Source: a virus. Taken from it: DNA of 64,000 nt. Where the stretch lies: positions 24,822 through 88,821 of the IMG/VR virus record IMGVR_UViG_3300045988_068528; one strand, given 5' to 3'. Under the pieces are notes generated by a model. It did no database searches. It worked only from the letters and a program-made list of their open reading frames with translations, and was not told the origin of the DNA. Below, piece after piece: positions 475 to 13,624 of the stretch; the stretch's first letter is position 1; every line of letters begins with the position of its first letter. The position numbers were made by a program, and so were the translations under genes.

Positions 475-1047
475 TTAGTCTTTTCTTTCGATATCTAGGC
501 CCGTAAGCACGCCTTTCATATAGGCTAATGTCTCTTCCTTGCATTCCGATAGAAACTTCTGGCATCCATCAATGATAACGCCGTACTTACCGCTCGGATA
601 ATTCTGTAGAGAGCACGAGTGGTAATGCTTTCCGGATTTCTCCTCGATTTCTCCTGCGAGTCGCTTCCCTTCGTCGGTCTCATTTGGACGATTTTCTGGG
701 TACTCATCGTAAAAATACTCGTGCCATAAATCTAGTAGCATATCCTTGCAATCCTCCATATCTTGCAAAATATCCGATAATTTGTATGGCGCGCCGTTAG
801 TACCATGTCCATCCTCGCCAATCCATTTACTGGCTTCCTCGTCAGGATCGAAGTCGCTATAATATTGATACAACTTATCCATGAAGTCAGACTTATTGCC
901 ATTCTCGAACCAAATTGTGGCGATGAAATCTTGGTCTTGTGGGGAATACTTCTCTAACTCGACGCAAACCTCACCTCTTTCGTTAGGTGTATCGTCAACA
1001 TTATAACTCCAGTCTAATTCCTCAGCTAATTTTAAAAAATCATTCAT
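475..1047 (-). CDS. hypothetical early protein, strongly acidic
   Basis: 190-aa ORF. The start is preceded by the TTGGTTAA cassette (1062-1069). The stop is embedded in TAAGCCAAAC. Confidence 0.7.
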   Translation of the reverse strand: MNDFLKLAEELDWSYNVDDTPNERGEVCVELEKYSPQDQDFIATIWFENGNKSDFMDKLYQYYSDFDPDEEASKWIGEDGHGTNGAPYKLSDILQDMEDCKDMLLDLWHEYFYDEYPENRPNETDEGKRLAGEIEEKSGKHYHSCSLQNYPSGKYGVIIDGCQKFLSECKEETLAYMKGVLTGLDIERKD

Positions 1048-1112
1048 ATTTTTAATTTTAATTGGTTAATACTAGGAGCGTGAAACAATAATGTTCCACG
1101 CCTTGTTCGGCT

Positions 1113-1535
1113 TTAAACCGGCAGAGACACGATATATTCCTTCTTCTTCTTTCGTGTTCTGCCCGTGACAGAATATCCGCAGATGTTTCTCAGAGAGAGA
1201 GCGGCTTCCGTCAGAAAAGGCTCGTTGACAAAGATTATCGGTTTCATCATATTATTCCGTACCATAAACTGATAGTCGATGAAGTCGAATGGGTCGTTGG
1301 GGTCTTCCGATTTCTTCTTCCAGATGCTTATGTCCAGCATTTCAATGAAGTCTCCCTCTGGTGGATTGTCCATATCAAGGAATCTCTTCGGGAGAAGCAA
1401 AATTGTTTCCTTTGGTTCGTGTGTCAAAAAGAAATCTGAAACAACGCTACAGAATATGTTTAGATTAAACACCTTCGGCTTCAAGCCCTTTGCCTTCAAA
1501 ATATCATTAACGTTAATGATTTTTGTTATTGCCAT
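1113..1535 (-). CDS. hypothetical early protein
   Basis: 140-aa ORF with the start cassette TTGGTTAA at 1551-1558. Confidence 0.7.
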   Translation of the reverse strand: MAITKIINVNDILKAKGLKPKVFNLNIFCSVVSDFFLTHEPKETILLLPKRFLDMDNPPEGDFIEMLDISIWKKKSEDPNDPFDFIDYQFMVRNNMMKPIIFVNEPFLTEAALSLRNICGYSVTGRTRKKKKEYIVSLPV

Positions 1536-1593
1536 AATTCAAAATTTTAATTGGTTAAACATTGTTCCCCGTCATTCCTGACGAGGATTTTGG

Positions 1594-2298
1594 CTAGTGT
1601 GCAAGAAATCCTACCGCCTGGCCCTTGCCGATGGACCAGCATAGTCTGTCTTCCTTCAGGCATTCTGTGCAGTTTCCGGTACATAGACGTGTTCCTTCCG
1701 GAGCAGACGTTCCGCTCTCGAAGATAGGATGCGCTTCTGGAAAACCGTGGCGGTTGTCCATATTGAGACCAAGCCATCCGCTGAATAGGATGTGCATGTT
1801 CTCGGGAATGACGTTTCCATCATCGATGTACTCGTTACATACATCGAACATTTTGGTGAACGCCAGGAACTTGGCATCCTTATGCTTGCGAGCAATCTCG
1901 CACATCTTGTCAAGATACCATTTGTTCTGTATGTCGCCACCGATGTGGAATCTGAATGCTCTAGGGAATCTGTAGTCGAGATACCCGTCAATCTCCTTGA
2001 AGTATCGTTCGGGATCCTCGTGGTAGATTGCAGAGTTGATAGCTCTCGTCTTGATAACCTCTTTATAGATGAAGTCGTTGCGAAGGTCGTAGCAGCTCTT
2101 CGCACAGATTGCACAGTTGCCGCAATCCATGACCGGGATAAGTGACAACGAAGGGATTGCTCCCAACTTTGTATTACCATCACTGATCTTGACGTGCAAG
2201 TCGCTGACGTTCTCTACTGCATCCTCATAAGCTGCCTGTGCCTTTGAAAGACGCGTCCTCATTCCTTCCTTACCTAATGTCCAGTAATTTCTACTCAT
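1594..2298 (-). CDS. hypothetical protein with a Cys cluster (CGNCAICAKSC)
   Basis: 234-aa ORF with the start cassette at 2312-2319 and the stop inside TAGCCAAAA. The Cys-rich motif suggests metal binding. No family was assigned. Confidence 0.7.
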   Translation of the reverse strand: MSRNYWTLGKEGMRTRLSKAQAAYEDAVENVSDLHVKISDGNTKLGAIPSLSLIPVMDCGNCAICAKSCYDLRNDFIYKEVIKTRAINSAIYHEDPERYFKEIDGYLDYRFPRAFRFHIGGDIQNKWYLDKMCEIARKHKDAKFLAFTKMFDVCNEYIDDGNVIPENMHILFSGWLGLNMDNRHGFPEAHPIFESGTSAPEGTRLCTGNCTECLKEDRLCWSIGKGQAVGFLAH

Positions 2299-2428
2299 AA
2301 TCCTAATTTAATTGGTTAAACTTGGGGAACAAAAAACCGGCGTGTCTCACGACAGACCGGCTTGAACCATTTAAACAAAATCTAGTTATGATAAGGAGTC
2401 AGCCGCTGCTAACGACTGACCTGTTTGG

Positions 2429-2857
2429 CTAATCTACGTCCTTTAGGACATTCCAGTTGAAAGTCACGATAGCCTCGTTGTCATCAAGTTCAAACGAGAT
2501 GATGAGTTGCTGGCCTTTCCTCTGTTCATCGATGTACTGCTTGAATCTCGGGAATAAGGATGAGTGGATCATCTCAAATGCGTTTCCTGTAAGATTCTTT
2601 ACGATTGTACTGGTGAATAAATCGATGTCTTCGCAAGTTCGCAATATCTGAGGAATACATTTTGCCGTGACGACATTTTCCTTGATGGTTGCCATCACGG
2701 GGAGTCCGGCGATGAATCCGAGATACACATTTCCATTGAATGAATAGTTCTCGTCATCAAACATATTCTCTTTCCACCAGTCAAGCATAACATTCTTGTT
2801 ATCTAGAGGTGCAGGAACAAGGGAATTCACATCGATTTTCTCTTTAATCTCTTTCAT
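2429..2857 (-). CDS. hypothetical early protein
   Basis: ORF with two in-frame ATGs (2863 and 2857). The cassette spacing to TTGGTTAG at 2870-2877 favours 2857. Confidence 0.65.
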   Translation of the reverse strand: MKEIKEKIDVNSLVPAPLDNKNVMLDWWKENMFDDENYSFNGNVYLGFIAGLPVMATIKENVVTAKCIPQILRTCEDIDLFTSTIVKNLTGNAFEMIHSSLFPRFKQYIDEQRKGQQLIISFELDDNEAIVTFNWNVLKDVD

Positions 2858-2972
2858 AATCATTCATTTTTGGTTAGACATAGAATCGGTTACCGAATCA
2901 GTAACCGACTTTTGGCTAGAATGGCTCCCGGCTGGCGCCTTACTATAAAAGTTCGATCGGAGAGCTTTAGCT

Positions 2973-3014
2973 CGAAGGATTACCTCCAGTGAATGCACTG
3001 GAGGAGATCCTTCG
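2973..3014 (-). other. long intergenic hairpin (8 + 9 bp stems)
   Basis: CGAAGGAT-TA-CCTCCAGTG-AATG-CACTGGAGG-AG-ATCCTTCG, read directly from the sequence, inside the unusually long 210-nt gap 2864-3074. Confidence 0.5.
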
Positions 3015-3074
3015 TTGCAGAAGCTATCGTAAAACATCTTTGCCGGGCCACCATACTACAAGCGGCGAACCTTA

Positions 3075-4133
3075 CTACTTACTGGCGATTACCTTCTCGA
3101 CCTTATCCTTATGCCACTCGTTAATCTTGCCCTGGATGTCGATATCGTTCTCTATAATGAGCTGCTTGAGAACACCGAGCATTCTCCAGCCCTGCTCATC
3201 ATAGAGCTTTGCTTTAGACTCAAGCTCCTTCAACGAGTTGGCCTCTGACATCTTCCGTCCGTTTTTCCAGAATCTGGCTCCGTGGAACATAATGAGGTTT
3301 CTCATCGTGTAGTAGGAACCAGAACCTTTGTAGGCATTGATGAAAGCATCTGATTGCTTGGTTTCCCATGCGAGATGCTTGCGCTTCTTGTTGAACTTGT
3401 GAACTGCATCATAGAGCTGCTTGTATGTAGGGACAGCCGCCATCTCGTTAGCAATCTCTCTGAGAGGTGTGTAGACTTTCTTTTCCAAGTCGCTGACAAA
3501 GATATCCTTGTTCTGAAGACGTACGTAAGGATTACCCTTGCAGGTGTGCTTGAAAGATTTCGTCTTCTTTCCGTCCTTGTCTTTCTTCCAGATAAGATTG
3601 TCATCCACGTACTTGCGGAGCTTGCTGATGTAGTCAGTAGCCATGTTGCTGGCAACGTCTCCGCTAAACCATCGGCTTCTAGAACCGACATTATCAAAGT
3701 CTCCGTGCTCAGACATCTTTACCTGAGCATAGAGTTCGTTCTCCAACATGCGCCACTGGTACTCGTAGCCCTTGTGCTGTAACACCTCGTTGAATGACTT
3801 GCCGTCCTTCTCCATGTCTCGCAACATGTGGAACATCTGCGACATCACCCAGCGGCGGAACAACTTCCAGTTGTTTACGTATCCACCCTCGACAATCTTC
3901 TTGCCTACCGCATCGATGGTTGCATCGTCCATGTCTACAGGAACCGCTGCACCATTCTCGATCTTGATAAGCTGGTCATTTCCGAGAGGGAAGTACTTGC
4001 TCACGTCAACACCTGCTGCCTTCAGAGCTTCGAGACGCATCTGTGCCTTGGTCTTCTTGGTAGCTGCTGTAGCCTCTACATTGCTAGTTACGATGTTCAA
4101 GTTTTCTCCAGTGATTGTTACAATCTGCTTCAT
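3075..4133 (-). CDS. hypothetical protein (352 aa)
   Basis: Long uninterrupted ORF with the start cassette TTGGTTAC at 4151-4158. Confidence 0.8.
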   Translation of the reverse strand: MKQIVTITGENLNIVTSNVEATAATKKTKAQMRLEALKAAGVDVSKYFPLGNDQLIKIENGAAVPVDMDDATIDAVGKKIVEGGYVNNWKLFRRWVMSQMFHMLRDMEKDGKSFNEVLQHKGYEYQWRMLENELYAQVKMSEHGDFDNVGSRSRWFSGDVASNMATDYISKLRKYVDDNLIWKKDKDGKKTKSFKHTCKGNPYVRLQNKDIFVSDLEKKVYTPLREIANEMAAVPTYKQLYDAVHKFNKKRKHLAWETKQSDAFINAYKGSGSYYTMRNLIMFHGARFWKNGRKMSEANSLKELESKAKLYDEQGWRMLGVLKQLIIENDIDIQGKINEWHKDKVEKVIASK

Positions 4134-4189
4134 AAATTCTATTATTTTAATTGGTTACTAAAAATTTATTTAACTCTAGTGGATGAGGC

Positions 4190-4642
4190 TTACGCCCCAC
4201 CCTTGTTTGGCTCAATCCAGTCTCTAAGGATAATCAGGTCCTTGTCGTTCTTGGAACGCCAGAACCACGTTCCCCATGAGTTATCCCACCAGAGGTTGCC
4301 TTTGAGTAGCTGAATCAGTACGTACAGCTCCAGCTTGCATCTCGCTACCTCTCGTCGCTCTCCGTACATCATATCTTCGTCTGAGAGCTCTTTCTCGGGC
4401 AAGGCCTTGAAGTAGTGCCGGCGATGTGATTCGGAGCGTTCTGACGGTACAGAATGCTTGTACGCTGCGTATCTCTGCTCGATGCCAACAAACACAACCT
4501 CGGGTGTAAGGTAAGGCGTGTCCTTCGGCTTGTCTTCCTCGGACATTACTACCTTGCCATTTACACGGCATGTTCTCTTCTGAAAGTTGATGGTGAACTT
4601 AGCACCATTCTCAACTGAATTGATGATTTCTTCGTATGTCAT
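4190..4642 (-). CDS. hypothetical protein (150 aa, Trp-rich C-terminus)
   Basis: ORF with the start cassette TTGGTTAA at 4655-4662. Confidence 0.75.
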   Translation of the reverse strand: MTYEEIINSVENGAKFTINFQKRTCRVNGKVVMSEEDKPKDTPYLTPEVVFVGIEQRYAAYKHSVPSERSESHRRHYFKALPEKELSDEDMMYGERREVARCKLELYVLIQLLKGNLWWDNSWGTWFWRSKNDKDLIILRDWIEPNKGGA

Positions 4643-5987
4643 ATTCTTAAAATATTGGTTAATAGTAGTGCGCTCAGAGAATCTGTTGCGTAACTATATG
4701 CTTTTGATATGTACAGTATTATAGTCCTGAGACTCCTGGATATAATCCAGTGATTCTCAGGATGCTGAATACTGTATTTACAATCGATTCTCCTTGCGCA
4801 CCATTCGGCTCGCAATAACCTAGTCTGGCTCAACCTGACACGTTGCATTGCTTTAAGCTTTCGATTAAGGGCATGTCATTGTTATGAAGCCAACATCCAG
4901 GAAGCGAATGCTTCCCCATCCTTGGCTTCAGAATCAATGAAACGCTAGATGAACTCTCAGAACTTGCCAGACATCGCTGCAATGCGCATGACTTATCTCA
5001 TGTATTATGTTGCATGGATATATGTTCGTGATTCGACCCCGTGTTTGGATACGGCCGTCGGTACAGATATGTATCGACGGCGGTATTCCACTCACGTGGT
5101 ATTAAACCTCATACTCTTGATAAGTCGTGATGCAATTCACTTTGGTTGTGGCAGGTACACTTATAGGTCTGTTGCCTACCTCTATCTTGACGATTGAGGG
5201 ATCTTGCAATACGCGAGATTGCTGGTATCACCAGCCATATCGCGTTGATACAGAGATCGCGACATAAAGAATCCCTCCTCGTGTACCTCGTTTGGCAATA
5301 ACGTTGTCTTCATCTGAGAACGTGACACGTAGCTGTAGCAGCTTGATCTGAGGGATGTTAACCCGCCGGATGACGCTGTGGATTCACAGCATTAGCCGGC
5401 GAGCACAACATCACTCGTAAATTAACTCCCCTCTGAAGACTACCCTCGTGCTCGGGTAGTTCCCTGACCGATGGCTCGGCACAATACTTTATGTTTCTGA
5501 TTTGACACAGGATTCGCCAGAATTCAGGATCCGGGTCACCGCTCATAGTTATGACGGTTACCAGGATCCGGACTTCTGGTTAAGAGACCTGTTGCGTAAA
5601 CATTGCCATCCGTCAGGGATTGGTGGTGTGCGCCACCGGTGGAAGTAATACGGACTGGCACATTTCTGTACTTCATTGATGAGCTACGCCTTGTGCGTCA
5701 TACGAAGGGCCCGAGGTGTCTCAAGTTGTAAACTTGGATAACTTGGTCCCTTCAGATGATGTTATAGAGGCGTCGCCTGAATCTGTCCGTCCTTCTCCTA
5801 CGTCCGTGTGCTCGGTTACAGAGTCTGCCGGTCAGAAGATACTGCGCATAGCTATATCAGTTCGATAGTATCCTGGTCGAGAGGATCGCAGGACCATCTC
5901 TGATTCAGAGATAGGTCCGCGATCTTCGAGACCGGATGTTTAAAACATTCTTCTTCATCCCGGCAGTTCCTTGCGCTAGGTGCTAAT
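4643..5987 (-). ncRNA. candidate RT-associated structured non-coding region
   Basis: 1345 nt directly downstream of the RT stop with no credible ORF in any frame, in an operon where gaps are otherwise 40-130 nt. Several long imperfect hairpins are present (5872-5935, 5527-5569, 5364-5401, 5049-5086). The strand is assumed from co-orientation with the RT. Confidence 0.35.
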
Positions 5988-7253
5988 CTATAGAGTATTC
6001 ACCAATGTGTTGTACGCTGCCCTGCTCGTTCGCAAGGCATTCTGAGCACAACCTATCGATAGATATCCCTTGATTTCGCTCTCTGTCTTACTCCTGTTGG
6101 CTTTCACGTTTCTGCCACGACCTCGGTCTATGCAACCTACAGCCTGAGTCTTCACGTATCCGAGACCACCAACCTTACTCTTGCCTGTCTTGACCGCACG
6201 GATGCAGTCCATAACGAATGCGTTGAGCTTGTCGATGTCCTCTTTCACGTTTATGACCGGAAGAACCTGAGTAGCCCAGGAATAATCGCAGTACCCCTTG
6301 TAGAGATATCTGTTTACTGCATTGATGGCTTTCGTCATCGTGGTGTCACGCTTCTTTATCGTCCTTTTCTCAATCTCCTTTTGAAAGGTCTTGATACGTG
6401 TGGACGACAGGGAGATATTGTGACCCTTGATGGAATATCCCAAGAACTTGAACCAGTGATTAGCGTCAAGATACTCAACCTTCTTCGGATTGAGCGTCAT
6501 CTGCATCATCTCCAGCTCGCTCTTCATGATATCCATGGCTTTCTCATAGTCTTCACCAACAAACAGCGTATCATCGGAATAGCGGACGTAATATCCGTTA
6601 AGCCTAGATAGCTTGTCGTCAAGATGATAGAGAATGACATCAGCCAGCCACGCAGCAACAGAGCATCCCTGCTTGAGGGACTGATACTTCTCGCAGAGGT
6701 TGTTGTCCTCATCAAAATAGATATCCGTGTGATAGTAGTCACGAATGACGTCTATCAGCGCAGACTTTCCGTACTTCTCCTCTACCTTGTCAAATGCCCA
6801 GTCGATGAACCGAATAGGCACAGAATCAAAGTACTTAGAGAAGTCACCTTTCCACCCGATGATTTTTCCCTCTGCCGAGTATATTATCCGAGACACTTCC
6901 TGCACCACACAACCGCAGCCGATACCTTTCTGGTACGACGTGCAGCGTGGATGCACCATCTCTGGCATCAGCTCGAACAGGAGGTCGTTGGCGATGCTCA
7001 AGAGGATTCTGTCCACAGCCTCATTCACATAGACTGTACGGAAATCTCCGTTGTCTTTAGGAATCTTGGCTGTATGAGGCGGCATTATCTTGTAATTGCC
7101 GCTCTTGATTCTCTGATACATAGCCAGACGAGCCTTTGGCTCTGTCAGCTGATACATTACTGCTTTGTTCATGTCCTTGAACAAGCCTTTTTCAATGGCA
7201 TACTGCCATCTGGCTTTCTCGAAGAACATCTCTAGGATTCTGTCTTCATTCAT
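5988..7253 (-). CDS. reverse transcriptase (stand-alone prokaryotic RT of group II / retron-like type)
   Basis: The RT motifs occur in order: IPKDNGDFRTVYV, DRILLSIANDL, GDFSKYFDSVP, LKQGCSVAAWLADVIL, VRYSDDTLFVG (YxDD box), LNPKKVEYL, FKFLGYSI. A thumb/X-like C-terminal region follows. Confidence 0.9.
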   Translation of the reverse strand: MNEDRILEMFFEKARWQYAIEKGLFKDMNKAVMYQLTEPKARLAMYQRIKSGNYKIMPPHTAKIPKDNGDFRTVYVNEAVDRILLSIANDLLFELMPEMVHPRCTSYQKGIGCGCVVQEVSRIIYSAEGKIIGWKGDFSKYFDSVPIRFIDWAFDKVEEKYGKSALIDVIRDYYHTDIYFDEDNNLCEKYQSLKQGCSVAAWLADVILYHLDDKLSRLNGYYVRYSDDTLFVGEDYEKAMDIMKSELEMMQMTLNPKKVEYLDANHWFKFLGYSIKGHNISLSSTRIKTFQKEIEKRTIKKRDTTMTKAINAVNRYLYKGYCDYSWATQVLPVINVKEDIDKLNAFVMDCIRAVKTGKSKVGGLGYVKTQAVGCIDRGRGRNVKANRSKTESEIKGYLSIGCAQNALRTSRAAYNTLVNTL

Positions 7254-7285
7254 AATTCTTATGTTTTGGTTATTGTGCGCAGTCC

Positions 7286-7465
7286 TTAGCTGCGCTTTTT
7301 AGGCAATGTTATTTCATCGCAGGGAAAACACTGGTCTATAGGCCACCAGAACTCGTTATCAATCCCTGCGAATCCTCTTTCCTCTGAAACGTGAGTCACA
7401 ACGTGTTCCTTTGATTGAGAATGTATGTCACAGTACACTCTCGTTCCTACCTCATTTTTTTTCAT
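7286..7465 (-). CDS. small hypothetical protein (59 aa)
   Basis: Hand-translated MKKNEVGTRVYCDIH...PKKRS. The start cassette TTGGTTAT is at 7478-7485. The ORF is below the ORF-track length cutoff. Confidence 0.45.
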   Translation of the reverse strand: MKKNEVGTRVYCDIHSQSKEHVVTHVSEERGFAGIDNEFWWPIDQCFPCDEITLPKKRS

Positions 7466-7513
7466 ATCTATAATGTTTTGGTTATTGGTAGGGAGATTAC
7501 TCTCCCCGTTTGG

Positions 7514-7741
7514 CTAGTCGATGTGCTGATAAGTCTCGCCGTAATCTTTCTCGTAATCTGCGTAGAACTGCTGGTCAGATTCAACTTGCACCTGTTCTCC
7601 TATAAAATCGTCTGAGTCGAGAACGATTTCGCAGTTATTGTAGGCATCGTTCACTGCACTCACTGCCTCAGCCTCACTCTCGGCATCAACGCTCACTACC
7701 TTGTTTAAAGTCTCTGTGACTGATACGTAATATCTCTTCAT
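7514..7741 (-). CDS. hypothetical early protein (75 aa, acidic)
   Basis: The start MKRYYVS was chosen from the cassette CATAATTCTTGTAATTTTGGTTAA. The stop lies in TAGCCAAACG. Confidence 0.65.
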   Translation of the reverse strand: MKRYYVSVTETLNKVVSVDAESEAEAVSAVNDAYNNCEIVLDSDDFIGEQVQVESDQQFYADYEKDYGETYQHID

Positions 7742-7822
7742 AATTCTTGTAATTTTGGTTAATATTGTTCCGTGTCGGGTCTCGAACCCGATGTGCGCCT
7801 GGTCGCTCACGGATGATAGATG

Positions 7823-8230
7823 TTAGAGTCTCTTGAGAGCAGCTTCGATGTCTGCGACTTTTTTGTCCTCAATCTTCGATATTTCTTGTAATATCTCGTC
7901 CAAGTGAGTAACAAAACTAAGTGCATCTACTACGCGGCCAACCTTCACATTAAGGTCACCAGCATGTATGTCGCATATACCAAACTCTTGCAACAAATAG
8001 TAAATGGTGCCACTCTTTCGCGCAAGAAGAGTGCGTTTAACACAACTTATTTGCACGGTAATAACGCTGAAGGTAATACCACAGCGAGGGATGAATATTT
8101 CTGTCATGTCAAGCTCAATGAGCTTATCGCATATAGCTTTCGCCAGTTCCTCGCACTTTTTTTTCAGTTCTTGAGACTTGTGTGCGTAATCGTCACGTCC
8201 AAGTACTTTCCACATTTCTTTTTTCTCCAT
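7823..8230 (-). CDS. hypothetical early protein (135 aa)
   Basis: The start MEKKEMW was chosen from the cassette (TTGGTTAA at 8247-8254). Confidence 0.65.
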   Translation of the reverse strand: MEKKEMWKVLGRDDYAHKSQELKKKCEELAKAICDKLIELDMTEIFIPRCGITFSVITVQISCVKRTLLARKSGTIYYLLQEFGICDIHAGDLNVKVGRVVDALSFVTHLDEILQEISKIEDKKVADIEAALKRL

Positions 8231-8283
8231 AATTCTTAATAATTTATTGGTTAATAATGCCAGAGGGATTGCTCCCTCCGTTT

Positions 8284-8541
8284 TTAGGCTAATGCGTTCA
8301 ATGCTCTGTGTGCGTTGTATGCGACAGGATTGTTGTATTTTGCCCTCTCCCACTTTTTGCGCTCACAAACTTTCAGGCAATACTCATGTGCTATATTCTC
8401 TGATAGTGCATCGAACGTGTTGTGTGTAATATCTGATGGCTTACCGAAATAAACTCTGTAACCATCCCTGTAGCATACTATACGTCTGCCAAGCCTGTAG
8501 ATTGTTCTACTGCCTTTCTCTACAAATGTAATTCTTTCCAT
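8284..8541 (-). CDS. hypothetical early protein (85 aa)
   Basis: The start MERITFV was chosen from the cassette (TTGGTTAT at 8554-8561). Confidence 0.65.
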   Translation of the reverse strand: MERITFVEKGSRTIYRLGRRIVCYRDGYRVYFGKPSDITHNTFDALSENIAHEYCLKVCERKKWERAKYNNPVAYNAHRALNALA

Positions 8542-8588
8542 AATTCTCTGTATTTGGTTATTGGTAGGTAGCCAACTGGCTACCAATT

Positions 8589-8921
8589 TTAGGCTTCGCT
8601 CCATGCTTTCCACGCTTCATTCGTGTTCTTGGTGATTGCCTCGTTCCAAAGCTTCTCCATGTTGTAGAAAATTTCCTGAAATGCTTTAGGGGTATCCTTC
8701 GGATCAATCTTCTTGCCGAAATACGGGCGTCCACATCTTCGTTCGTCGTGCTCCCAGATGCACCGTATCATTCCCGTCTCCGTTGGAGTGCATCCGAGGA
8801 ATGTTCCCATTGTACCGCATGTCTTTTCTCTAAGCCACTTCGGATAAGGAACGTAGATTGTCCACGCATCCACGCAGTCACGGAACTTCTTTCTTGTGTC
8901 GTGATAAAGTTTCAATTTCAT
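8589..8921 (-). CDS. hypothetical early protein (110 aa, Cys/Trp-rich)
   Basis: The start MKLKLYH was chosen from the cassette (TTGGTTAA at 8935-8942). Confidence 0.65.
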   Translation of the reverse strand: MKLKLYHDTRKKFRDCVDAWTIYVPYPKWLREKTCGTMGTFLGCTPTETGMIRCIWEHDERRCGRPYFGKKIDPKDTPKAFQEIFYNMEKLWNEAITKNTNEAWKAWSEA

Positions 8922-8970
8922 AATTCTTTGTAATTTGGTTAATGGAAGAGGAGCATGCAAGCTCCCCTTG

Positions 8971-9813
8971 TTAGGCTGCATCTTTCGGCTGTAAGCCGTG
9001 TTCTTTGATAACCTCTTCGATGAGGCCATCAGCATCTTCGAAGTACTCTCCCCAGCAGGAATCAATCTCCTCCCAGTCGTAGGAGTCAGAAGTGTCTCCG
9101 TCGTCGTACATTTTAGTGTAATGACGCTTCTTTTCAAGGACAAATCCTTTTACGTCACCCCACATCCATATACCAATATCCTTGACTTCGCTCTCAAACA
9201 GCTCGATGGCACGATTCTTCCAGTTCTTGGTATTCGTATCCACCATCTTCTTGAAGCGCTCTTTGTCACAATAGGCAACACCTTCTACGTAGTCTCCCTG
9301 GCAGTATCCTGTGGAAGACCACTCGTATATCACGATTTCGTAAGCTATGTCATCAAGCAGCCAGATCAAGTCCTCGTTGTTCATAGGCTCAATCATCTCT
9401 GCTCTCATGTCATAGTTCTTGATTTCGTCAGGAGTGAACTCTACCGAAGTCTTGTACGCCTCTCTGCTGTAGTAATAATCAAGTTCCCATACATGAGAGC
9501 TTCTATCATACGATAATTTAGCAGAGCGGTGCTTGTTGCTCTTCAGATATTTTACAAGACGATTCTGCGGAACATACTTGTATACAAGCTCACGGAGAGC
9601 ATCCTGCAAGCTGTGGTCGTTTGTGTCGTATTTTCTATCATATATTTCATCCCAGTTGCAGCCGTTACTTAATCTTCCACTACCACAACTGGTATACTCC
9701 CAAAGATACACACCTGCCAAATCCCATGCAGAGCAAGGCGATTCAGCATCCTCATCCTGGTAAATGGTGATTCTGTAATCACCGATTTCCTTCTTTGCAA
9801 ATTCGTAACTCAT
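8971..9813 (-). CDS. hypothetical protein (about 280 aa)
   Basis: Long ORF. An alternative ATG lies at 9825. The cassette variant ATGGTTTAA is at 9831. Confidence 0.75.
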   Translation of the reverse strand: MSYEFAKKEIGDYRITIYQDEDAESPCSAWDLAGVYLWEYTSCGSGRLSNGCNWDEIYDRKYDTNDHSLQDALRELVYKYVPQNRLVKYLKSNKHRSAKLSYDRSSHVWELDYYYSREAYKTSVEFTPDEIKNYDMRAEMIEPMNNEDLIWLLDDIAYEIVIYEWSSTGYCQGDYVEGVAYCDKERFKKMVDTNTKNWKNRAIELFESEVKDIGIWMWGDVKGFVLEKKRHYTKMYDDGDTSDSYDWEEIDSCWGEYFEDADGLIEEVIKEHGLQPKDAA

Positions 9814-9868
9814 ATCTAATATCATTTAAATGGTTTAACATTGAATATCCCCATGCTAGGGGATATTT

Positions 9869-10438
9869 TTAGGCTAATGTTTCCTCAAGAAGAGAATCAT
9901 ACTCTTCCTCTGTAACACCAAGATCGTCAGCGCTCATCACCTGTTTAAGCATCCAAGGATAAACTTTCTGCTTTCCCTCGCGCTCGGCAATATACTCGTC
10001 TATTGCGCACACGATATCAAGGTCTGATGATATATCGACATCACATCTATCTGGCACATCTGAGAATCCTCTCGTAACTGGAAACTCAAATGAGAATCCC
10101 TCTGCAATATCAGGCATAGGAATATCGGAATCAGGATTCTGTTTCCATGCGTTGAAAACCGAGGCATATTCTTTCTGCCACTTGCAATACTCTTCGTAAT
10201 CGTATGCGTGAGCCGTCACGTGACCATTCTCCTCGCTGATTGTCAATTCTACAGCATAAGGGAAATCGGTTGAATAATACGGCTTACAGAAAGCGCGACT
10301 TGAATACATACACTTGAATGTGTCAATCCAATCACACACTTTGCAATCTATATCGGTCTTGTCCTCTATAGAATCTGCATACTCATTAATCTCCTTGACT
10401 GTAAGCTTGTACTGAATCTTGTAAAATAGCTTTTCCAT
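9869..10438 (-). CDS. hypothetical protein (189 aa, acidic)
   Basis: ORF with a cassette variant at 10453. Confidence 0.75.
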   Translation of the reverse strand: MEKLFYKIQYKLTVKEINEYADSIEDKTDIDCKVCDWIDTFKCMYSSRAFCKPYYSTDFPYAVELTISEENGHVTAHAYDYEEYCKWQKEYASVFNAWKQNPDSDIPMPDIAEGFSFEFPVTRGFSDVPDRCDVDISSDLDIVCAIDEYIAEREGKQKVYPWMLKQVMSADDLGVTEEEYDSLLEETLA

Positions 10439-10490
10439 AATTCATCTGTTTAATGGTTCATAATGGTTCCCCACATTATCGTGGGGAGTT

Positions 10491-10730
10491 TTAGGCAGAA
10501 ACAACGAAACTCCAATAGGTTTTGTAGAAATACTTGTACGCTTCAAGCTCGTCCGTCTCTGGAACTTCTGATATTTCAAGCTTTCCGGTGTCCTTGCGTA
10601 AGTCGGCAACGGAAAATAAACCGTCGTGCGTCCACTTGATAAGATCCACACGTCTTGCTGAATTCTCTACAGACTCGACGATTTCACACTTCAGCAAATC
10701 GTCATTCAAAATTTTCTCTAAGTCACTCAT
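10491..10730 (-). CDS. hypothetical early protein (79 aa)
   Basis: The start MSDLEKI was chosen from the cassette (TTGGTTAA at 10744-10751). Confidence 0.65.
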   Translation of the reverse strand: MSDLEKILNDDLLKCEIVESVENSARRVDLIKWTHDGLFSVADLRKDTGKLEISEVPETDELEAYKYFYKTYWSFVVSA

Positions 10731-10793
10731 AATTCTGTAATCTTTGGTTAATAGAAATCCCAATTCCTGCTACAGAATTGGGAAATGTTTGGC

Positions 10794-11018
10794 TTAGAGC
10801 TTGTCGATATTCCAGTGTTCTATCTGAAACTCGTAGTCTCGATTGCTCGTACACTGCGACTGCATAATATCTCTCAGCTGTCTTACCTGCTCGTTAGTCG
10901 CTCCTTTCCAATGCGCCGCCCAACAGCATTTTTCTACAGAACTTCCTACAAATACCACCTCCATACTATTTGAGGAGTGCCAGCTGTCACATTTGTATAA
11001 AATATAGATTTCTTTCAT
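10794..11018 (-). CDS. hypothetical early protein (74 aa)
   Basis: ORF tightly packed after the upstream gene. The stop lies in TAAGCCAAAC. Confidence 0.6.
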   Translation of the reverse strand: MKEIYILYKCDSWHSSNSMEVVFVGSSVEKCCWAAHWKGATNEQVRQLRDIMQSQCTSNRDYEFQIEHWNIDKL

Positions 11019-11026
11019 AAGGCGAA

Positions 11027-11182
11027 TTAATTATAATTACACATTATTTCTGTCTCACTGATAATTTCAGCACAATGCTTGCAGCGATGGCACATTATGT
11101 AGCCTTTTGCCTGTAATTTGCTGAACTTCGGGTATGGGCATTTCTCACCCATACCGGCTCTCGTAATCTCAATTTTAATCAT
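11027..11182 (-). CDS. small Cys-rich protein, possible zinc ribbon (51 aa)
   Basis: Contains CPYPKF...CHRCKHC. The start was chosen from the cassette (TTGGTTAA at 11195). Confidence 0.5.
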   Translation of the reverse strand: MIKIEITRAGMGEKCPYPKFSKLQAKGYIMCHRCKHCAEIISETEIMCNYN

Positions 11183-11240
11183 ATTCAATCTGTATTGGTT
11201 AATAGAAATCCCCACCCGTGAGAGTGAAGATTGGTTTGGC

Positions 11241-11444
11241 TTAATACAGAAGAGCTCTGAAACAAAGCTTGTCGCTTATTACACCATCTTTCTGTAGCCC
11301 GTCCTTCCAGTCATTGAAAGTCATGTTCAAGTCAAGGTTGAACTTTGTCTTCTTGCCAGTGTAGTCGATACCACACTCGTCGCAAAACTGCCAGAATGCT
11401 TCACGAAGCTGCTTCTGGTTTGTGATCTGATATTTATTCGCCAT
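11241..11444 (-). CDS. hypothetical early protein (67 aa)
   Basis: ORF with the cassette TTGGTTAA at 11462-11469. Confidence 0.65.
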   Translation of the reverse strand: MANKYQITNQKQLREAFWQFCDECGIDYTGKKTKFNLDLNMTFNDWKDGLQKDGVISDKLCFRALLY

Positions 11445-11516
11445 AATTCAAATAATTTATCTTGGTTAAACAATAGAAGGCACGCTCAGACATGGGCGCA
11501 CCTTTTTAGGCAAATA

Positions 11517-11774
11517 CTACTCTTCTTCATCTTCATCCTCTTCCTCTTCTTCGTCTTCGTCAAGACAATAATAGCTGTCAATCTCATCTGTGCCGGAGTA
11601 GCCTTCATCTTTACACTGCTCGTAACTGCGTAGTCCTGTCTTGGCATAAATAATGTCTGTCATCGTTTCCTCGTTCAAGCCATTTATATACGAGACAAGT
11701 CTAACCTCGTCCTCTGTGGCGATATTGTTGTCAACAATGAAATCCCACAGCATAGCCTCAATACTTTCTTTCAT
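11517..11774 (-). CDS. hypothetical protein with a poly-Asp/Glu C-terminal tail
   Basis: 85-aa ORF ending in DEDEEEEEDEDEEE. A cassette variant TTTAGTTAA is at 11788. Confidence 0.65.
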   Translation of the reverse strand: MKESIEAMLWDFIVDNNIATEDEVRLVSYINGLNEETMTDIIYAKTGLRSYEQCKDEGYSGTDEIDSYYCLDEDEEEEEDEDEEE

Positions 11775-11832
11775 ATCCTTTGAATATTTAGTTAATAATA
11801 GCTCCCACGTGTCTCCACGCAGGATTTTTGGC

Positions 11833-12237
11833 TTAATAGAGATACTTGTCTGTGTTCACTCCAAGGATATAGGCGAGTTCAAGCATCTTCTTTGCTATAT
11901 TCTTGAACCAGTCTCCCACAAAATTGTGGTCATGGCATTTCCATAACTTTCCAATCTGCTCGATGTCGTAATCCGCAAACGCTATGTTTACGGTACTACA
12001 CAACCCTTGGAGCCAGTCTGTAAGCAGACTAAGACGTGATAATCTACGCTTGTCGTTCTTTACCATCTCCTCGTGGAACATCTTGAATGCGAACTCGATT
12101 TTCATCTTGTCGCTCAAGACGCTGACATCTACGTCGTTGGAGTGGATGGAATCCAATATATATGAATACCATTTCATATTCTGCTCACTCATCTCGGCAG
12201 CTGTTCTGATAGCTGCAATTTCCTGTTTTTCGTTCAT
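11833..12237 (-). CDS. hypothetical protein (134 aa)
   Basis: The start MNEKQEI was chosen from the cassette spacing. An alternative ATG lies at 12246. Confidence 0.7.
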   Translation of the reverse strand: MNEKQEIAAIRTAAEMSEQNMKWYSYILDSIHSNDVDVSVLSDKMKIEFAFKMFHEEMVKNDKRRLSRLSLLTDWLQGLCSTVNIAFADYDIEQIGKLWKCHDHNFVGDWFKNIAKKMLELAYILGVNTDKYLY

Positions 12238-12297
12238 AATTCTCATTTTTATGGTTCAACATGGTTTCTGCGCAGATAGGCTGCACAGAATGTTTGG

Positions 12298-12474
12298 CTA
12301 GAATTTGCGAGGGCGCATATAGGCACGCTCGATCTCCTGAGCTTTTCTGTCCACTCGTGCCGTACGTCTGAAATACTCGCTCTTGTCGAGTTTCTTTCTC
12401 GCACACTCCTCGCTGATAACCGCCTTGTGACTCGCTACGAGCCTTGCAAGGAATCTTCTGTCTCCGTCTGTCAT
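12298..12474 (-). CDS. small basic hypothetical protein (58 aa)
   Basis: Hand-translated MTDGDRRFLARLV...MRPRKF. It has the cassette TTGGTTAA at 12490-12497 and its stop lies in TAGCCAAAC. It replaces the off-frame track ORF 12185-12406. Confidence 0.5.
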   Translation of the reverse strand: MTDGDRRFLARLVASHKAVISEECARKKLDKSEYFRRTARVDRKAQEIERAYMRPRKF

Positions 12475-12519
12475 AATTCTGATTTTGATTTGGTTAATAA
12501 TTGGAGGCGTAGCAAATAA

Positions 12520-12684
12520 CTACGCCGGGTCTGGTCTAAAGCTGTACGTAAGAAGCCACTCGCAATTTAAGGCACTGTGGAAATCCCTTGCGGCTCTCTC
12601 TCCCCATCCTCGTGGTTTGTATGCGTCTTCTTTCAAATACTTCTCTACAAGCTTCTCTAGCTGAGTCTTTTCTTCTGCTGTCAT
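12520..12684 (-). CDS. small hypothetical protein (54 aa)
   Basis: The start MTAEEKT was chosen from the cassette (TTGGTTAA at 12698-12705). Confidence 0.5.
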   Translation of the reverse strand: MTAEEKTQLEKLVEKYLKEDAYKPRGWGERAARDFHSALNCEWLLTYSFRPDPA

Positions 12685-12741
12685 AATATATTCTGTTTTG
12701 GTTAATAGCAGGCAGCACATTATCGTACTGCCCAGTTCTGG

Positions 12742-13011: not shown

Positions 13012-13060
13012 AATTCTACATTTTTGGTTTATAGGAGAGGGAGAAATAACTCCCTCAAAT

Positions 13061-13336: not shown

Positions 13337-13385
13337 AATCTTAAAATATTGGTGAATAGTATGCGTGACAATCGCCACGCACATT

Positions 13386-13562: not shown

Positions 13563-13624
13563 AATTCTTCCGTTTAAATGGTTTAACATAGTATGCCCAG
13601 GAAAATGCCTGAGCACATTTTTGG

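What the first reader, a model, noticed from the sequence alone, without database searches (positions are those of the whole stretch)
4643..7253. Stand-alone phage reverse transcriptase followed by a 1.3-kb ORF-free, hairpin-dense tract inside the early operon
ORF 5988-7253 (minus strand) carries the full RT motif series, including the VRYSDDTLF (YxDD) box.

Directly downstream on the same strand lie 1345 nt (4643-5987) without a credible ORF. Every other gap in this roughly 30-gene operon is about 40-210 nt. The tract starts right after the RT stop and ends at the standard start cassette of the next gene (TTGGTTAA at 4655-4662), so it should be co-transcribed with the RT. It contains at least four long imperfect hairpins (5872-5935, 5527-5569, 5364-5401, 5049-5086).

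The arrangement does not fit the layouts I know:
- DGR: I saw no template/variable repeat pair and no Avd-like gene. Motif 4 reads QGCSVAAW rather than the DGR-type ..SQ.
- Group II intron: there is no intron RNA upstream of the ORF, and I saw no GUGYG 5' end or domain V.
- Retron and DRT2/DRT9: their ncRNA normally lies upstream of the RT, not downstream.

The inference is that this is an RT with a large cognate non-coding RNA or template carried by a phage. Its role could be counter-defence, cDNA synthesis or something else.
Basis: partly seen in the sequence, partly recalled or inferred. Interest (0 to 1): 0.85.

Follow-up and report, generated by a model that had tools for sequence, protein, structure and literature searches.

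The report
Phage UG27 reverse transcriptase with ncRNA array
A gut Bacteroides-type phage carries a UG27-class reverse transcriptase followed by a 1.35-kb non-coding array of eight hairpin units and two partner proteins; the family was described in 2022, but what DNA it makes and why is still unknown.

Summary
ORF 5988-7253 (-) is an intact reverse transcriptase (RT). The 1345 nt downstream (4643-5987) are non-coding, conserved and densely structured.

The RT is not an orphan. It matches the PADLOC RT_UG27 model end to end (E = 3e-226). UG27 is the Class 2 UG/Abi RT that Mestre et al. 2022 found in about 1450 human-gut phage genomes, with a putative ncRNA and two domain-less partner genes. All of those parts are present here.

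What I add:
- The tract is a tandem array of eight units of about 165-175 nt. Each unit has a long hairpin whose sequence varies but whose pairing is kept. A conserved 27-nt motif (ATATCAAACAAATAAAGCAATGTGCCG) sits at the hairpin's 3' foot.
- The motif recurs with this period after UG27 RTs in most of the diverse clades sampled. It is always on the RT strand and was found nowhere else.
- The 150-aa partner is fused to the RT in several lineages. There the array appears to lie after the 352-aa partner.
- Hairpin wobble positions favour pairing on the complementary (cDNA) strand.

DGR, group II intron and retron layouts are excluded. An unreadable September 2026 preprint appears to describe the same "ncRNA arrays". 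My verdict is an already known system with its mechanism still open. A cultured relative exists: Bacteroides phage BS-TP1.

The parts
5988..7253 (-). UG27-class reverse transcriptase, 421 aa, YSDD active site
   Evidence: PADLOC RT_UG27 E = 3.2e-226 over residues 3-421 of the protein and 2-420 of a 420-position model. Pfam RVT_1. 4560 homologues with E <= 1e-10.
4643..5987 (-). Non-coding array of eight units of about 165-175 nt (hairpin plus conserved motif plus linker)
   Evidence: No ORF and no codon periodicity. Mosaic of conserved linkers and variable hairpins. Periodic motif. No Rfam match.
5870..5937 (-). Unit 1 hairpin (M1), 28 bp
   Evidence: Fold. Covariation: 9 of 19 pairs compensatory, 0 of 500 shuffles.
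5844..5867 (-). Unit 1 motif TATCGAACTGATATAGCTATGCGC
   Evidence: nhmmer hit, E = 1.1e-4.
5698..5759 (-). Unit 2 hairpin (M2) core; outer pairing reaches 5682-5777
   Evidence: Fold. Seven non-homologous variants among near-identical phages, all folding as hairpins with z = -2.9 to -8.5.
5657..5681 (-). Unit 2 motif CATCAATGAAGTACAGAAATGTGCC
   Evidence: nhmmer hit, E = 1.1e-5.
5505..5595 (-). Unit 3 hairpin (M3), 34 bp
   Evidence: Fold. Four variant clusters, z = -6.6 to -8.9.
5477..5501 (-). Unit 3 motif ATCAGAAACATAAAGTATTGTGCCG
   Evidence: nhmmer hit, E = 0.0087.
5350..5414 (-). Unit 4 hairpin (M4)
   Evidence: Fold. Variants z = -2.2 to -5.3.
5324..5347 (-). Unit 4 motif ATCAAGCTGCTACAGCTACGTGTC
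   Evidence: nhmmer hit, E = 1.4e-4.
5173..5287 (-). Unit 5 hairpin domain (M5); core 5210-5244; its motif is degenerate
   Evidence: Fold. Six variant clusters, z = -2.3 to -6.1.
5024..5114 (-). Unit 6 hairpin (M6), 34 bp; its motif is degenerate
   Evidence: Fold. Covariation: 16 of 24 pairs compensatory, 96.3% paired, 0 of 500 shuffles.
4871..4944 (-). Unit 7 hairpin (M7)
   Evidence: Fold. Missing as a unit-sized (about 164 nt) deletion in several close relatives.
4846..4865 (-). Unit 7 motif ATCGAAAGCTTAAAGCAATG
   Evidence: nhmmer hit, E = 0.0015.
4712..4770 (-). Unit 8 hairpin (M8)
   Evidence: Fold.
4689..4710 (-). Unit 8 motif ATATCAAAAGCATATAGTTACG
   Evidence: nhmmer hit, E = 0.025.
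5142..5334 (-). Segment duplicated three units downstream at 4655-4847
   Evidence: Local alignment score 56 against 23 +/- 3.6 in shuffles, z = 9. Colinear direct repeats at spacing 483-487.
4190..4642 (-). p150: 150-aa partner protein, fused to the RT C-terminus in other lineages
   Evidence: Syntenic after the tract in nearly all loci down to 38% RT identity. In-frame RT-p150 fusion in L092 and in 8 representative clusters. AlphaFold2 (AF2) model pLDDT 89.4 with no PDB fold match. No Pfam or PHROG match.
3075..4133 (-). p352: 352-aa partner protein, mostly helical, no known domain
   Evidence: Syntenic after p150. Conserved motifs RRWVMSQMF and AYKGSGAYYTMRNL. No Pfam, PHROG or PDB sequence match. 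AF2 model too poor to use (pLDDT 55).
4655..4662 (-). TTAACCAA start cassette of p150, lying inside the last array unit
   Evidence: Recurs before most operon genes. Aligned with CAACCAA at about 5140-5146 in the duplicated unit.

Best explanation
This is a UG27 system, a phage-borne Class 2 UG/Abi reverse transcriptase module.

**Components (shown).**
- The RT (5988-7253).
- A downstream array of eight structured ncRNA units on the RT strand, presumably co-transcribed with it (4643-5987).
- Two dedicated partner proteins, p150 (4190-4642) and p352 (3075-4133).

**Unit anatomy (shown).** Each unit of about 170 nt is a long hairpin. Its sequence is free to change as long as pairing is kept. It is followed at its 3' foot by a conserved 27-nt motif and a linker.

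**How it works (inferred).**
- The RT, with p150 as a subunit, binds each unit through the conserved motif and hairpin base. It uses the unit as the template for cDNA synthesis, so one transcript programmes up to eight RT reactions.
- My preferred version: synthesis starts at or next to the motif. That is the 3' side of the hairpin, where an enzyme reading 3'->5' must begin. It then runs into the hairpin and gives a family of hairpin-forming single-stranded DNAs, analogous to retron msDNA.
- The biological role (counter-defence, superinfection exclusion or replication) is not established.
For: **Identity.**
- RT_UG27 match, E = 3e-226, full length.
- Mestre et al. 2022 describe UG27 in gut phages with an intergenic ncRNA and two domain-less associated clusters.
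- The window has phage primase, portal, large terminase (TerL) and major capsid protein (MCP) genes.

**Non-coding and selected.**
- Linker diversity is 0.03-0.07, against 0.131 at RT third codon positions.
- Hairpin diversity is 0.16-0.33.
- There is no codon periodicity.

**Structure.**
- Every hairpin variant folds, z = -3 to -9.
- Covariation is formal in M1 and M6.

**Array.**
- 104 motif hits in 31 kb of 33 diverse tracts, 0 on the other strand, 0 in 113 kb of upstream controls. 60 of 77 spacings are 140-180 nt.
- 177 hits in 829 kb of loci, all on the RT strand downstream of the RT.
- Window hits at 5867, 5681, 5501, 5347, 4865 and 4710.
- Hairpin centres are 151-177 nt apart.
- Unit-sized indels occur among phages whose RTs are 97-99% identical.
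- Tracts from 157 to 1459 nt carry from one to eight long hairpins.

**Partners.**
- RT -> tract -> p150 -> p352 synteny holds down to 38% RT identity.
- RT-p150 fusions.
- In two loci where p150 directly follows the RT (in-frame fusion shown for L092), a motif hit lies after p352 in an ORF-poor 1.3 kb.

**cDNA-strand hint.**
- In strand-neutral stems, A.C oppositions on the RT strand (= G.T on the complement) number 146 against 92 G.U (p = 6e-4; 17 tracts against 3).
- RT third positions are T-rich rather than A-rich, so a simple mutation bias does not explain this.

**Family logic.** All characterised Class 2 UG RTs copy an ncRNA template framed by stem-loops (Ramirez et al. 2026).
Against: - No transcript, cDNA or protein data exist here. 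Co-transcription, RT binding and templating are all inferred.
- In the two close-relative alignments, G.U cells outnumber A.C cells (about 40 against 19 and 93/94). These cells count sequences rather than events, so the strand evidence is mixed.
- Characterised relatives (DRT9, DRT10, DRT3) copy a short single-stranded template repeatedly rather than a hairpin. This favours the rival version.
- Two of the eight window units have only degenerate motifs.
- Some clades (L081, L143, L150, L161) have hairpin-rich tracts without detectable motifs.
- No conserved C-terminal priming residue could be identified. The near-C-terminal aromatic residue is Tyr or Phe.
- p150 and p352 gave no functional clue.
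Confidence: 0.7

Rival explanations
1. The system and array are the same, but it works like DRT9, DRT10 and DRT3. The long hairpins are only anchoring stem-loops. The template is a short single-stranded stretch of the conserved linker or motif between two hairpins. It is copied over and over into tandem-repeat ssDNA, possibly protein-primed, with up to eight RT protomers on one RNA.
For: - UG27's nearest PADLOC families after itself are UG26, DRT9 (UG28) and UG17 (DRT10), E = 2e-32 to 5e-25. DRT9 is among the best solved-structure sequence matches (E = 3e-25).
- Ramirez et al. 2026 report that DRT2, 3, 9 and 10 all use two flanking stem-loops framing a single-stranded template with A-B-A' microhomology.
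- Here a conserved 27-nt A-rich motif lies between consecutive hairpins, and its sequence rather than the hairpins' is what is conserved.
Against: - No consistent A-B-A' microhomology or identity covariation was detectable in 89 aligned motif instances.
- The A.C excess over G.U in hairpin stems suggests that pairing of the complementary strand matters. This model does not predict that.
- RT-p150 fusions bury the RT C-terminus, which is the priming site in DRT9 and DRT10.
Confidence: 0.25
2. The array is a structured RNA that is bound but not copied. It could be a scaffold, sponge or regulator, for example holding RT-p150 inactive or titrating a host factor. Any cDNA would then be templated elsewhere or made without a template, as in AbiK/DRT4.
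For: - No template could be pinpointed.
- Some UG/Abi RTs synthesise DNA without a template (own knowledge).
- Unit number varies freely from one to eight.
Against: - The RT belongs to Class 2, where all studied members are ncRNA-templated.
- The array is in a fixed phase and on a fixed strand relative to the RT across clades.
Confidence: 0.04
3. The tract is a DNA-level element, such as a replication origin, iterons or a packaging site made of direct repeats and inverted repeats. It would be only coincidentally next to the RT.
For: - Periodic direct repeats plus inverted repeats resemble iteron origins.
- Hairpin arms covary equally well for cruciform DNA.
Against: - The array follows the RT in the great majority of related loci fetched and starts at a constant distance from its stop codon (about 50 nt to hairpin 1, about 130 nt to motif 1).
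- Where p150 directly follows the RT, a motif hit lies after p352, still on the RT strand.
- Stems contain G.U or A.C wobble positions and bulges typical of single-strand folding.
- A separate AT-rich, repeat-rich gap next to the primase (16236-17523) is the more ordinary origin candidate.
Confidence: 0.02
4. The tract is junk: decayed genes and leftover intergenic cassettes with terminator-like hairpins. Or the RT belongs to a classical DGR, group II intron or retron whose partner elements lie elsewhere.
For: - The last unit ends in the same TTAACCAA cassette used before ordinary genes. Operon intergenic regions also carry short hairpins.
- The best solved-structure sequence hits include group II intron RTs.
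Against: - Linkers are two to four times more conserved than synonymous sites.
- The periodic motif is specific to this position.
- Covariation is present.
- An adenine-blind TR/VR scan of the 64-kb window finds only the self-match.
- Rfam shows no group II or other family.
- Retron and DGR-type models score far below UG27.
Confidence: 0.01

Closest known systems
UG27 systems of human-gut phages (Mestre et al. 2022, NAR 50:6084, PMC9226505)
   Same: - RT family.
- Location in Caudoviricetes genomes of Bacteroidetes-type gut phages.
- Two associated proteins without known domains.
- A structured non-coding region between the RT and the next conserved gene.
- No defence-island association.
   Different: - The paper's main text speaks of a putative ncRNA 'with three long stem-loops'. 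Here the tract has eight hairpin units of about 170 nt.
- I also find a 27-nt motif shared across clades, a three-unit super-repeat, unit-number variation from one to eight, RT-p150 fusions and relocation of the array.
- I could not see their Supplementary Figure S6, nor map p150 and p352 onto their cluster numbers 336, 337 and 346.
'ncRNA arrays' of UG27 in the preprint 'Coevolutionary mining of prokaryotic non-coding elements with a genome language model' (bioRxiv 10.64898/2026.09.22.753630)
   Same: The full-text index shows UG27 74 times, 'UG27 ncRNA' 11, 'ncRNA array' 10, 'ncRNA unit' 10, hairpin 33, cDNA 24 and Bacteroides 8. It therefore very probably describes the same array-of-units architecture and some cDNA work.
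   Different: The text could not be opened. What it shows about template, product or function is unknown to me. My array description was derived independently from the sequences.
DRT9 (UG28) and DRT10 (UG17), Class 2 UG antiviral RTs
   Same: - Closest characterised RT relatives.
- The RT works with a dedicated structured ncRNA.
- Stem-loops frame the template.
- They form oligomeric RT:ncRNA assemblies (6:6 and 2:1).
   Different: - Those are bacterial defence systems with one short ncRNA, placed upstream of the RT in DRT9.
- They make poly-dA or tandem repeats, primed from a C-terminal Ser or Tyr. DRT10 has a SLATT effector.
- UG27 is phage-borne and has a downstream multi-unit array and different partners (p150, p352).
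- In some lineages its RT C-terminus is fused to p150.
Retrons (msr-msd ncRNA plus RT)
   Same: - A hairpin whose sequence is hypervariable but whose pairing is conserved lies next to conserved recognition elements.
- In retrons that hairpin (msd) is what is copied into ssDNA.
   Different: - The retron ncRNA is single-copy, lies upstream of the RT, has a1/a2 repeats and a branching G, and pairs with effector toxins.
- The RT families are distant here (retron models E >= 1e-11).
DRT3 (UG3 + UG8 with a 3' ncRNA)
   Same: The ncRNA lies downstream of the RT gene(s), so a downstream position is not unprecedented.
   Different: DRT3 has two RTs, one short ncRNA, a poly-(dTdG) product and a bacterial defence context.

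Membership tests
UG27 (Class 2 UG/Abi RT system) | RT matches the UG27 profile better than any other RT class | tested here: met
   PADLOC RT_UG27 E = 3.2e-226, 749 bits, full length. The next best is UG26 at 2.4e-32.
UG27 (Class 2 UG/Abi RT system) | No extra known domain fused to the RT (a Class 2 trait) | tested here: met
   Only RVT_1 in Pfam, residues 64-275.
UG27 (Class 2 UG/Abi RT system) | Two conserved neighbouring proteins without known domains (clusters 337 and 346 of Mestre et al.) | tested here: met
   p150 and p352 are syntenic in nearly all loci and have no Pfam or PHROG match. Equivalence to the published cluster numbers could not be checked.
UG27 (Class 2 UG/Abi RT system) | Structured non-coding region between the RT and the next conserved gene | tested here: met
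UG27 (Class 2 UG/Abi RT system) | Encoded in a tailed phage of gut Bacteroidetes or Firmicutes | tested here: met
   Primase, portal, TerL and MCP genes in the window. 411 relatives in IMG/VR. Cultured relative Bacteroides phage BS-TP1.
Diversity-generating retroelement (DGR) | Template/variable repeat pair differing at adenines | tested here: not met
   An adenine-blind scan of the tract against both strands of the 64-kb window finds only the self-match. blastn-short finds only the start cassette. Genome beyond the window was not scanned.
Diversity-generating retroelement (DGR) | Avd accessory gene and DGR-type RT | tested here: not met
   Neighbours have no Avd or any Pfam domain. The RT is UG27 by profile.
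Group II intron | Ribozyme domains (D1-D6) flanking the RT ORF | tested here: not met
   No Rfam hit at E <= 10 in 4000-8000, nor at gathering score in the whole window. Only 32 nt lie upstream of the RT.
Group II intron | RT of the group II clade | tested here: inconclusive
   The UG27 profile hits group II RTs in the PDB at E = 7e-29, similar to DRT9 at 3e-25. But the UG27 model wins by about 200 orders of magnitude over every other RT model in PADLOC. No phylogeny was built.
Retron | msr-msd ncRNA upstream of the RT with a1/a2 inverted repeats; retron-clade RT | tested here: not met
   The upstream gap is 32 nt. The best retron RT model is E = 1.4e-11. No Rfam retron family matched.
DRT9 / DRT10 (UG28 / UG17) | RT matches that family's profile best | tested here: not met
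   Drt9 E = 1.7e-28 and RT_UG17 E = 4.6e-25, against UG27 at 3e-226.
DRT9 / DRT10 (UG28 / UG17) | Short single-stranded template with A-B-A' microhomology between two stem-loops; tandem-repeat cDNA | tested here: inconclusive
   Stem-loops flank a conserved single-stranded motif. No consistent microhomology was found. The product is not testable here.
DRT9 / DRT10 (UG28 / UG17) | Protein priming from a conserved C-terminal Ser or Tyr after a conserved helix | tested here: inconclusive
   The C-terminal region is conserved, but the near-terminal aromatic residue is Tyr or Phe. The C-terminus is fused to p150 in 8 clusters.

The most novel reading that the evidence does not exclude
Each unit's hairpin is reverse-transcribed, so the phage makes a set of up to eight different hairpin ssDNAs from one transcript, a viral multi-unit analogue of retron msDNA. 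These act early in infection as decoys or inhibitors of host nucleic-acid-sensing defences or ssDNA-binding factors.

The faster-than-synonymous turnover of hairpin sequence, with pairing preserved on the cDNA strand, would reflect an arms race or self-templated correction of the two arms.
Probability: 0.25. Interest if true: 0.85.

Novelty: already known. Interest (0 to 1): 0.5.

Why it matters
UG27 is one of the few reverse transcriptase families carried by phages themselves rather than by their hosts. It is very abundant in the human gut: thousands of protein clusters, and 411+ IMG/VR loci for this clade alone. Its product and role are unknown.

Three points turn a vague "RT plus ncRNA" into a concrete, testable machine:
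- The RNA partner is a variable-length array of about 170-nt units with a defined recognition motif.
- p150 is in effect an RT subunit.
- A cultured Bacteroides phage (BS-TP1) carries the whole system.

If the product is a set of hairpin ssDNAs or repeat DNAs made by a virus, it would extend the retron/DRT principle from defence to the phage side. It could also supply compact, multiplexable RT-template units for in-cell ssDNA production.

Tried and rejected
- **Rfam.** An E-value search of 4000-8000 and a gathering-score search of the whole window gave only chance miRNA-like hits or nothing.
- **Tandem Repeats Finder.** It found nothing in the window tract or in L111. The units are too diverged, and the periodicity only appeared through a motif HMM.
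- **DNA similarity.** Megablast of the region against INPHARED phages found no match.
- **Linker profiles.** nhmmer profiles of the window's linker blocks find only the 93%-identity relative, plus three marginal hits. Primary sequence is not traceable beyond about 85% RT identity except for the 27-nt motif.
- **k-mer regexes.** Simple regexes across clades were noisy.
- **DGR.** blastn-short and an adenine-blind scan were both negative.
- **p352.**
  - The AF2 model from a shallow alignment was unusable (pLDDT 55), so no fold search was run on it.
  - A profile search against PDB sequences gave nothing.
- **p150.** The model is good, but there was no fold match in the PDB and only an uncharacterised orthologue in BFVD.
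- **Template search.** A test for A-B-A' microhomology and for column covariation in 89 aligned motif instances gave no clear signal.
- **Strand assignment from folding energy.** Taken alone it is confounded by base composition. It was replaced by a strand-neutral stem count.
- **Other searches.**
  - P0133 as a query found nothing in IMG/VR.
  - One folding script timed out.
  - The Minerva preprint could not be opened. Only term counts from the index were used, and one probe was wasted.
- **Not attempted.** I did not build a covariance model of the unit, because MAFFT alignments of the non-homologous hairpins were too poor to seed one.


Full report
**1. The observation.** ORF 5988-7253 on the minus strand encodes a 421-aa protein. 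It carries the RT motif series, including QGCSVAAW and VRYSDDTLF, and matches Pfam RVT_1. The 1345 nt between its stop codon and the ATG of the next gene (4643-5987) contain no ORF above 82 aa on either strand. Other gaps in this minus-strand operon are 0-250 nt. TTAACCAA at 4655-4662 is part of a cassette that recurs about 20 nt before most start codons of the operon. No minus-strand intrinsic terminator separates the RT from the next gene.

**2. What the RT is.** Against PADLOC models the protein matches RT_UG27 over its full length (E = 3.2e-226). The next models are UG26 (2e-32), DRT9/UG28 (2e-28) and UG17/DRT10 (5e-25). Retron, DRT2 and DRT3 models score far lower. Mestre et al. 2022 (PMC9226505) defined UG27 as a Class 2 UG/Abi RT. 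They report that it is:
- not enriched in defence islands;
- found in 1447 dereplicated gut-phage genomes;
- associated with two protein clusters of unknown function;
- accompanied by a putative ncRNA 'with three long stem-loops' between the RT and the next conserved gene.

The window is a tailed phage, with primase, portal, TerL and major head protein genes. The RT has 4560 homologues at E <= 1e-10 and 411+ loci in IMG/VR.

**3. The tract is non-coding, selected and structured.** I used 76 distinct close relatives, with RTs 96-99% identical in protein and DNA 83-92% identical.
- Nucleotide diversity is 0.131 at RT third codon positions.
- It is only 0.03-0.07 in five linker blocks of the tract.
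- It is 0.16-0.33 in seven hairpin blocks.
- Diversity in the tract shows no 3-base periodicity.

The variable blocks coincide with the hairpins. Within phages whose RTs are nearly identical, a given hairpin exists in two to seven sequence versions less than 75% identical to each other. Every version folds into a long hairpin with z = -2 to -9 against shuffles.

Formal counts confirm covariation:
- M1 (5870-5937): 92.9% of cells paired, against 31-50% when the partner is slid. 9 of 19 pairs have compensatory changes. 0 of 500 shuffles reach the observed values.
- M6 (5024-5114): 96.3% paired, against 25-46% slid. 16 of 24 pairs compensatory. 0 of 500.

**4. The tract is a tandem array of units.** Folding gives eight long hairpins whose centres are 151-177 nt apart. 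In L111, a relative with 68% RT identity, a 27-nt direct repeat recurs at 170-176-nt spacing. An HMM seeded on it and iterated has the consensus ATATCAAACAAATAAAGCAATGTGCCG, often followed about 10 nt later by TGAGAAC.

Its distribution is highly specific:
- 104 hits in 31 kb of 33 mutually dissimilar UG27 downstream tracts.
- No hit on the opposite strand of those tracts.
- No hit in 113 kb of upstream control sequence.
- 60 of 77 spacings fall between 140 and 180 nt, and most of the others near two or three times that.
- Over 829 kb of fetched loci and both strands, all 177 hits lie on the RT strand downstream of the RT.

Hits sit at about 130, 305, 480, 650, 820, 990 and 1150 nt after the RT stop codon in clade after clade. 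The array is therefore in phase with the RT gene.

In the window the motif is found at 5867, 5681, 5501, 5347, 4865 and 4710. The two expected positions in between carry degenerate versions. In each case the motif abuts the 3' foot of the hairpin.

The number of units varies:
- Tracts of 157-200 nt carry one hairpin, about 550-650 nt carry three, and 1345-1459 nt carry eight.
- Close relatives differ by unit-sized indels of about 162-164 nt. One (L066) lacks the equivalent of window 5111-5951.
- Window segment 5334-5142 is a diverged duplicate of 4847-4655, three units apart (z = 9). The array may therefore have grown by three-unit duplication, which would fit the 'three stem-loops' of the 2022 description.

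Units at the same ordinal position resemble each other across clades more than units within one array do. This is my reading of the listed instances and I did not quantify it. If so, the array is old and its units have differentiated.

**5. Partner proteins.** The order RT -> tract -> p150 -> p352 is kept in nearly all loci, down to 38% RT identity. In many close relatives one or two small extra genes, each with its own start cassette, sit between the array and p150.

In L092 the RT ORF continues in frame into a p150-like domain, giving 555 aa. L162 has the same close RT-p150 spacing (58 nt between the matches). Eight independent 50%-identity representative clusters of 517-607 aa are RT-p150 fusions. 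In L092 and L162 the region after p352 carries a motif hit and, in L092, is about 1.3 kb of ORF-poor sequence.

These fusions are strong evidence that p150 works in physical contact with the RT. The relocation suggests that the array is an autonomous part of the system.

p150 gives a confident AlphaFold2 model (pLDDT 89.4). It has no fold match in the PDB and only an uncharacterised orthologue among viral models. p352 is largely helical, but its model is unreliable (pLDDT 55). Neither protein matches Pfam, PHROGs or PDB sequences.

**6. Which strand folds?** The motif is strand-specific, and the operon context means the RT-sense strand is transcribed. Yet the complement folds more stably in 29 of 33 tracts. 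Base composition explains part of this.

I therefore defined stems in a strand-neutral way, using purine-pyrimidine folding and keeping only stems with at least 75% Watson-Crick pairs. In those stems, A.C oppositions on the RT strand (G.T on the complement) number 146 against 92 G.U (binomial p = 6e-4; 17 tracts against 3). RT third codon positions on the same strand are T-rich rather than A-rich, so a general mutation skew does not account for the difference.

In the two close-relative alignments, G.U cells are the more numerous. Those cells count sequences, not events. I read this as a suggestive hint, not proof, that pairing is also selected on the complementary strand. That is what one would expect if the hairpins are copied into DNA.

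**7. Exclusions.**
- DGR: no template/variable repeat pair by blastn-short or by an adenine-blind scan of the whole window.
- No Rfam family and no tRNA.
- Only 32 nt lie upstream of the RT, so there is no upstream retron- or DRT2/9-type RNA.
- The UG27 profile does hit solved group II intron RTs (7e-29) about as well as DRT9 (3e-25). This reflects the general relatedness of these RT domains, because no intron RNA is present.

**8. How it most likely works.**
- Shown: an intact RT; a conserved, structured, periodic non-coding array on its strand; two dedicated partners, one of them recurrently fused to the RT.
- Known for relatives: Ramirez et al. 2026 report that the four Class 2 UG systems studied (DRT2, 3, 9, 10) all copy an ncRNA template framed by two stem-loops that the RT grips at their bases. 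DRT9 and DRT10 prime from a C-terminal Ser or Tyr.
- Inferred: RT-p150 docks on the motif and hairpin foot of each unit and uses the unit as template, so one transcript serves up to eight reactions.
- Preferred version (about 0.4): synthesis begins at the motif and runs into the hairpin, giving hairpin ssDNAs. Three points support it. The motif is on the 3' side of the hairpin. Hairpin sequence is unconstrained apart from pairing, as in retron msd. The wobble asymmetry points to the complement.
- Main rival (about 0.25-0.3): telomerase-like repeat synthesis from a short stretch of the conserved linker.
- The biological role is open. The operon position, among many small genes and just downstream of a DpnD/PcfM-like gene, and the lack of defence association are compatible with an early counter-defence or exclusion function. 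Nothing here tests that.

**9. What is and is not new.** The system is already known (2022). A preprint dated 24 September 2026 (bioRxiv 10.64898/2026.09.22.753630) is indexed but cannot be opened. Its full text contains UG27 74 times, 'UG27 ncRNA' 11, 'ncRNA array' 10, 'ncRNA unit' 10, hairpin 33 and cDNA 24. The array architecture I derived independently is therefore very probably described there too.

I cannot tell whether that preprint covers the following:
- the 27-nt motif and its phase relative to the RT;
- the RT-p150 fusions and the relocated array;
- unit-sized copy-number variation among near-identical phages;
- the wobble asymmetry;
- the faster-than-synonymous turnover of hairpin sequence.

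A practical gain is Bacteroides phage BS-TP1, cultured on B. salyersiae BG8 (PMC12694917). It carries the complete system:
- gp79 RT, 67% identical and annotated 'tail protein';
- a 1349-nt unannotated gap with periodic motif hits;
- gp80, a p150 homologue, and gp82, a p352 homologue.

**10. Caveats.**
- Everything about transcription, binding, templating and function is inference from sequence.
- Covariation was tested formally on two of the eight hairpins.
- Shuffle controls do not remove phylogenetic relatedness, although the slid-partner controls do.
- Motif-negative clades exist (L081, L143, L150, L161).
- The DGR scan covers only this 64-kb window of a genome of about 88 kb.

Noticed in passing
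window 16236-17523: A second ORF-free gap of about 1.29 kb lies between the divergent minus-strand operon and the primase gene (17524-19086). It has many dispersed direct and inverted repeats and looks AT-rich from the repeat sequences listed (composition not measured). It has no UG27 motif. It is probably the divergent promoter or replication-origin region.
   Followed up: partly
window 1047-14226, upstream of most minus-strand genes: A stereotyped intergenic cassette: (T)AGCCAAA right after the stop codon, a short GC-rich hairpin, then TTAACCAAT about 20 nt before the ATG. It could be a phage-specific promoter, processing or translation-start signal. A CAACCAA copy also sits inside array unit 5/6 (about 5140-5146).
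   Followed up: partly
L001 7602-7847; L003 7611-7892 and 7837-8163 (equivalent to window about 4643-4660): Many close relatives carry one or two extra small genes (81-108 aa, acidic) inserted between the array and p150. Each has its own copy of the start cassette. The junction behaves as a moron insertion hotspot.
   Followed up: partly
L092 3980-5647; close RT-p150 spacing also in L162; proteins P0126, P0130, P0140, P0144, P0166, P0168, P0171, P0175: The RT is fused in frame to a p150-like C-terminal domain in L092 and in eight representative protein clusters. L162 has the same close spacing. In L092 and L162 a motif hit lies downstream of p352 instead of between the RT and p150.
   Followed up: yes
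protein P0122 (1872 aa): A UG27-like RT (66-68% identical) is joined to about 1400 further residues with helicase-like motifs (ILVDESHQFKNL, GTGVN), which I read by eye as SNF2/DEAH-like. It is either a real fusion or a gene-calling read-through. Its contig was not examined.
   Followed up: no
L066 (IMGVR_UViG_3300045988_095041) about 6303-6307: A phage with a 97%-identical RT lacks the equivalent of window 5111-5951 (units 1-5). It keeps only about 480 nt of array sequence (units 6-8 by my reading). This is a natural array truncation or an assembly collapse.
   Followed up: partly
PQ571274.1 79351-80613 (L173 4495-5757): In the cultured Bacteroides phage BS-TP1 the UG27 RT (gp79) is annotated 'tail protein'. 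The 1349-nt array after it is unannotated.
   Followed up: yes
window 7514-7810 (-): A 98-aa DpnD/PcfM-like protein (Pfam PF14207, E = 6e-18) is encoded two genes upstream of the RT. The same domain sits directly upstream of the RT in L081. A possible link to the system was not tested.
   Followed up: no
window 26339-29089 (-): The large terminase ORF is unusually long (916 aa). Its N-terminal half also gives weaker hits to helicase, primase and DnaC-like PHROGs. It may be a fusion or a split/duplicated ATPase.
   Followed up: no
window hairpin blocks M1-M7 (5940-4818): Hairpin sequence turns over faster than synonymous sites (diversity 0.16-0.33 against 0.13-0.21), through wholesale replacement by non-homologous but still self-complementary sequence. 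This suggests cassette exchange, diversifying selection (possibly CRISPR targeting, as Mestre et al. noted spacers against this region) or self-templated correction of the arms.
   Followed up: partly
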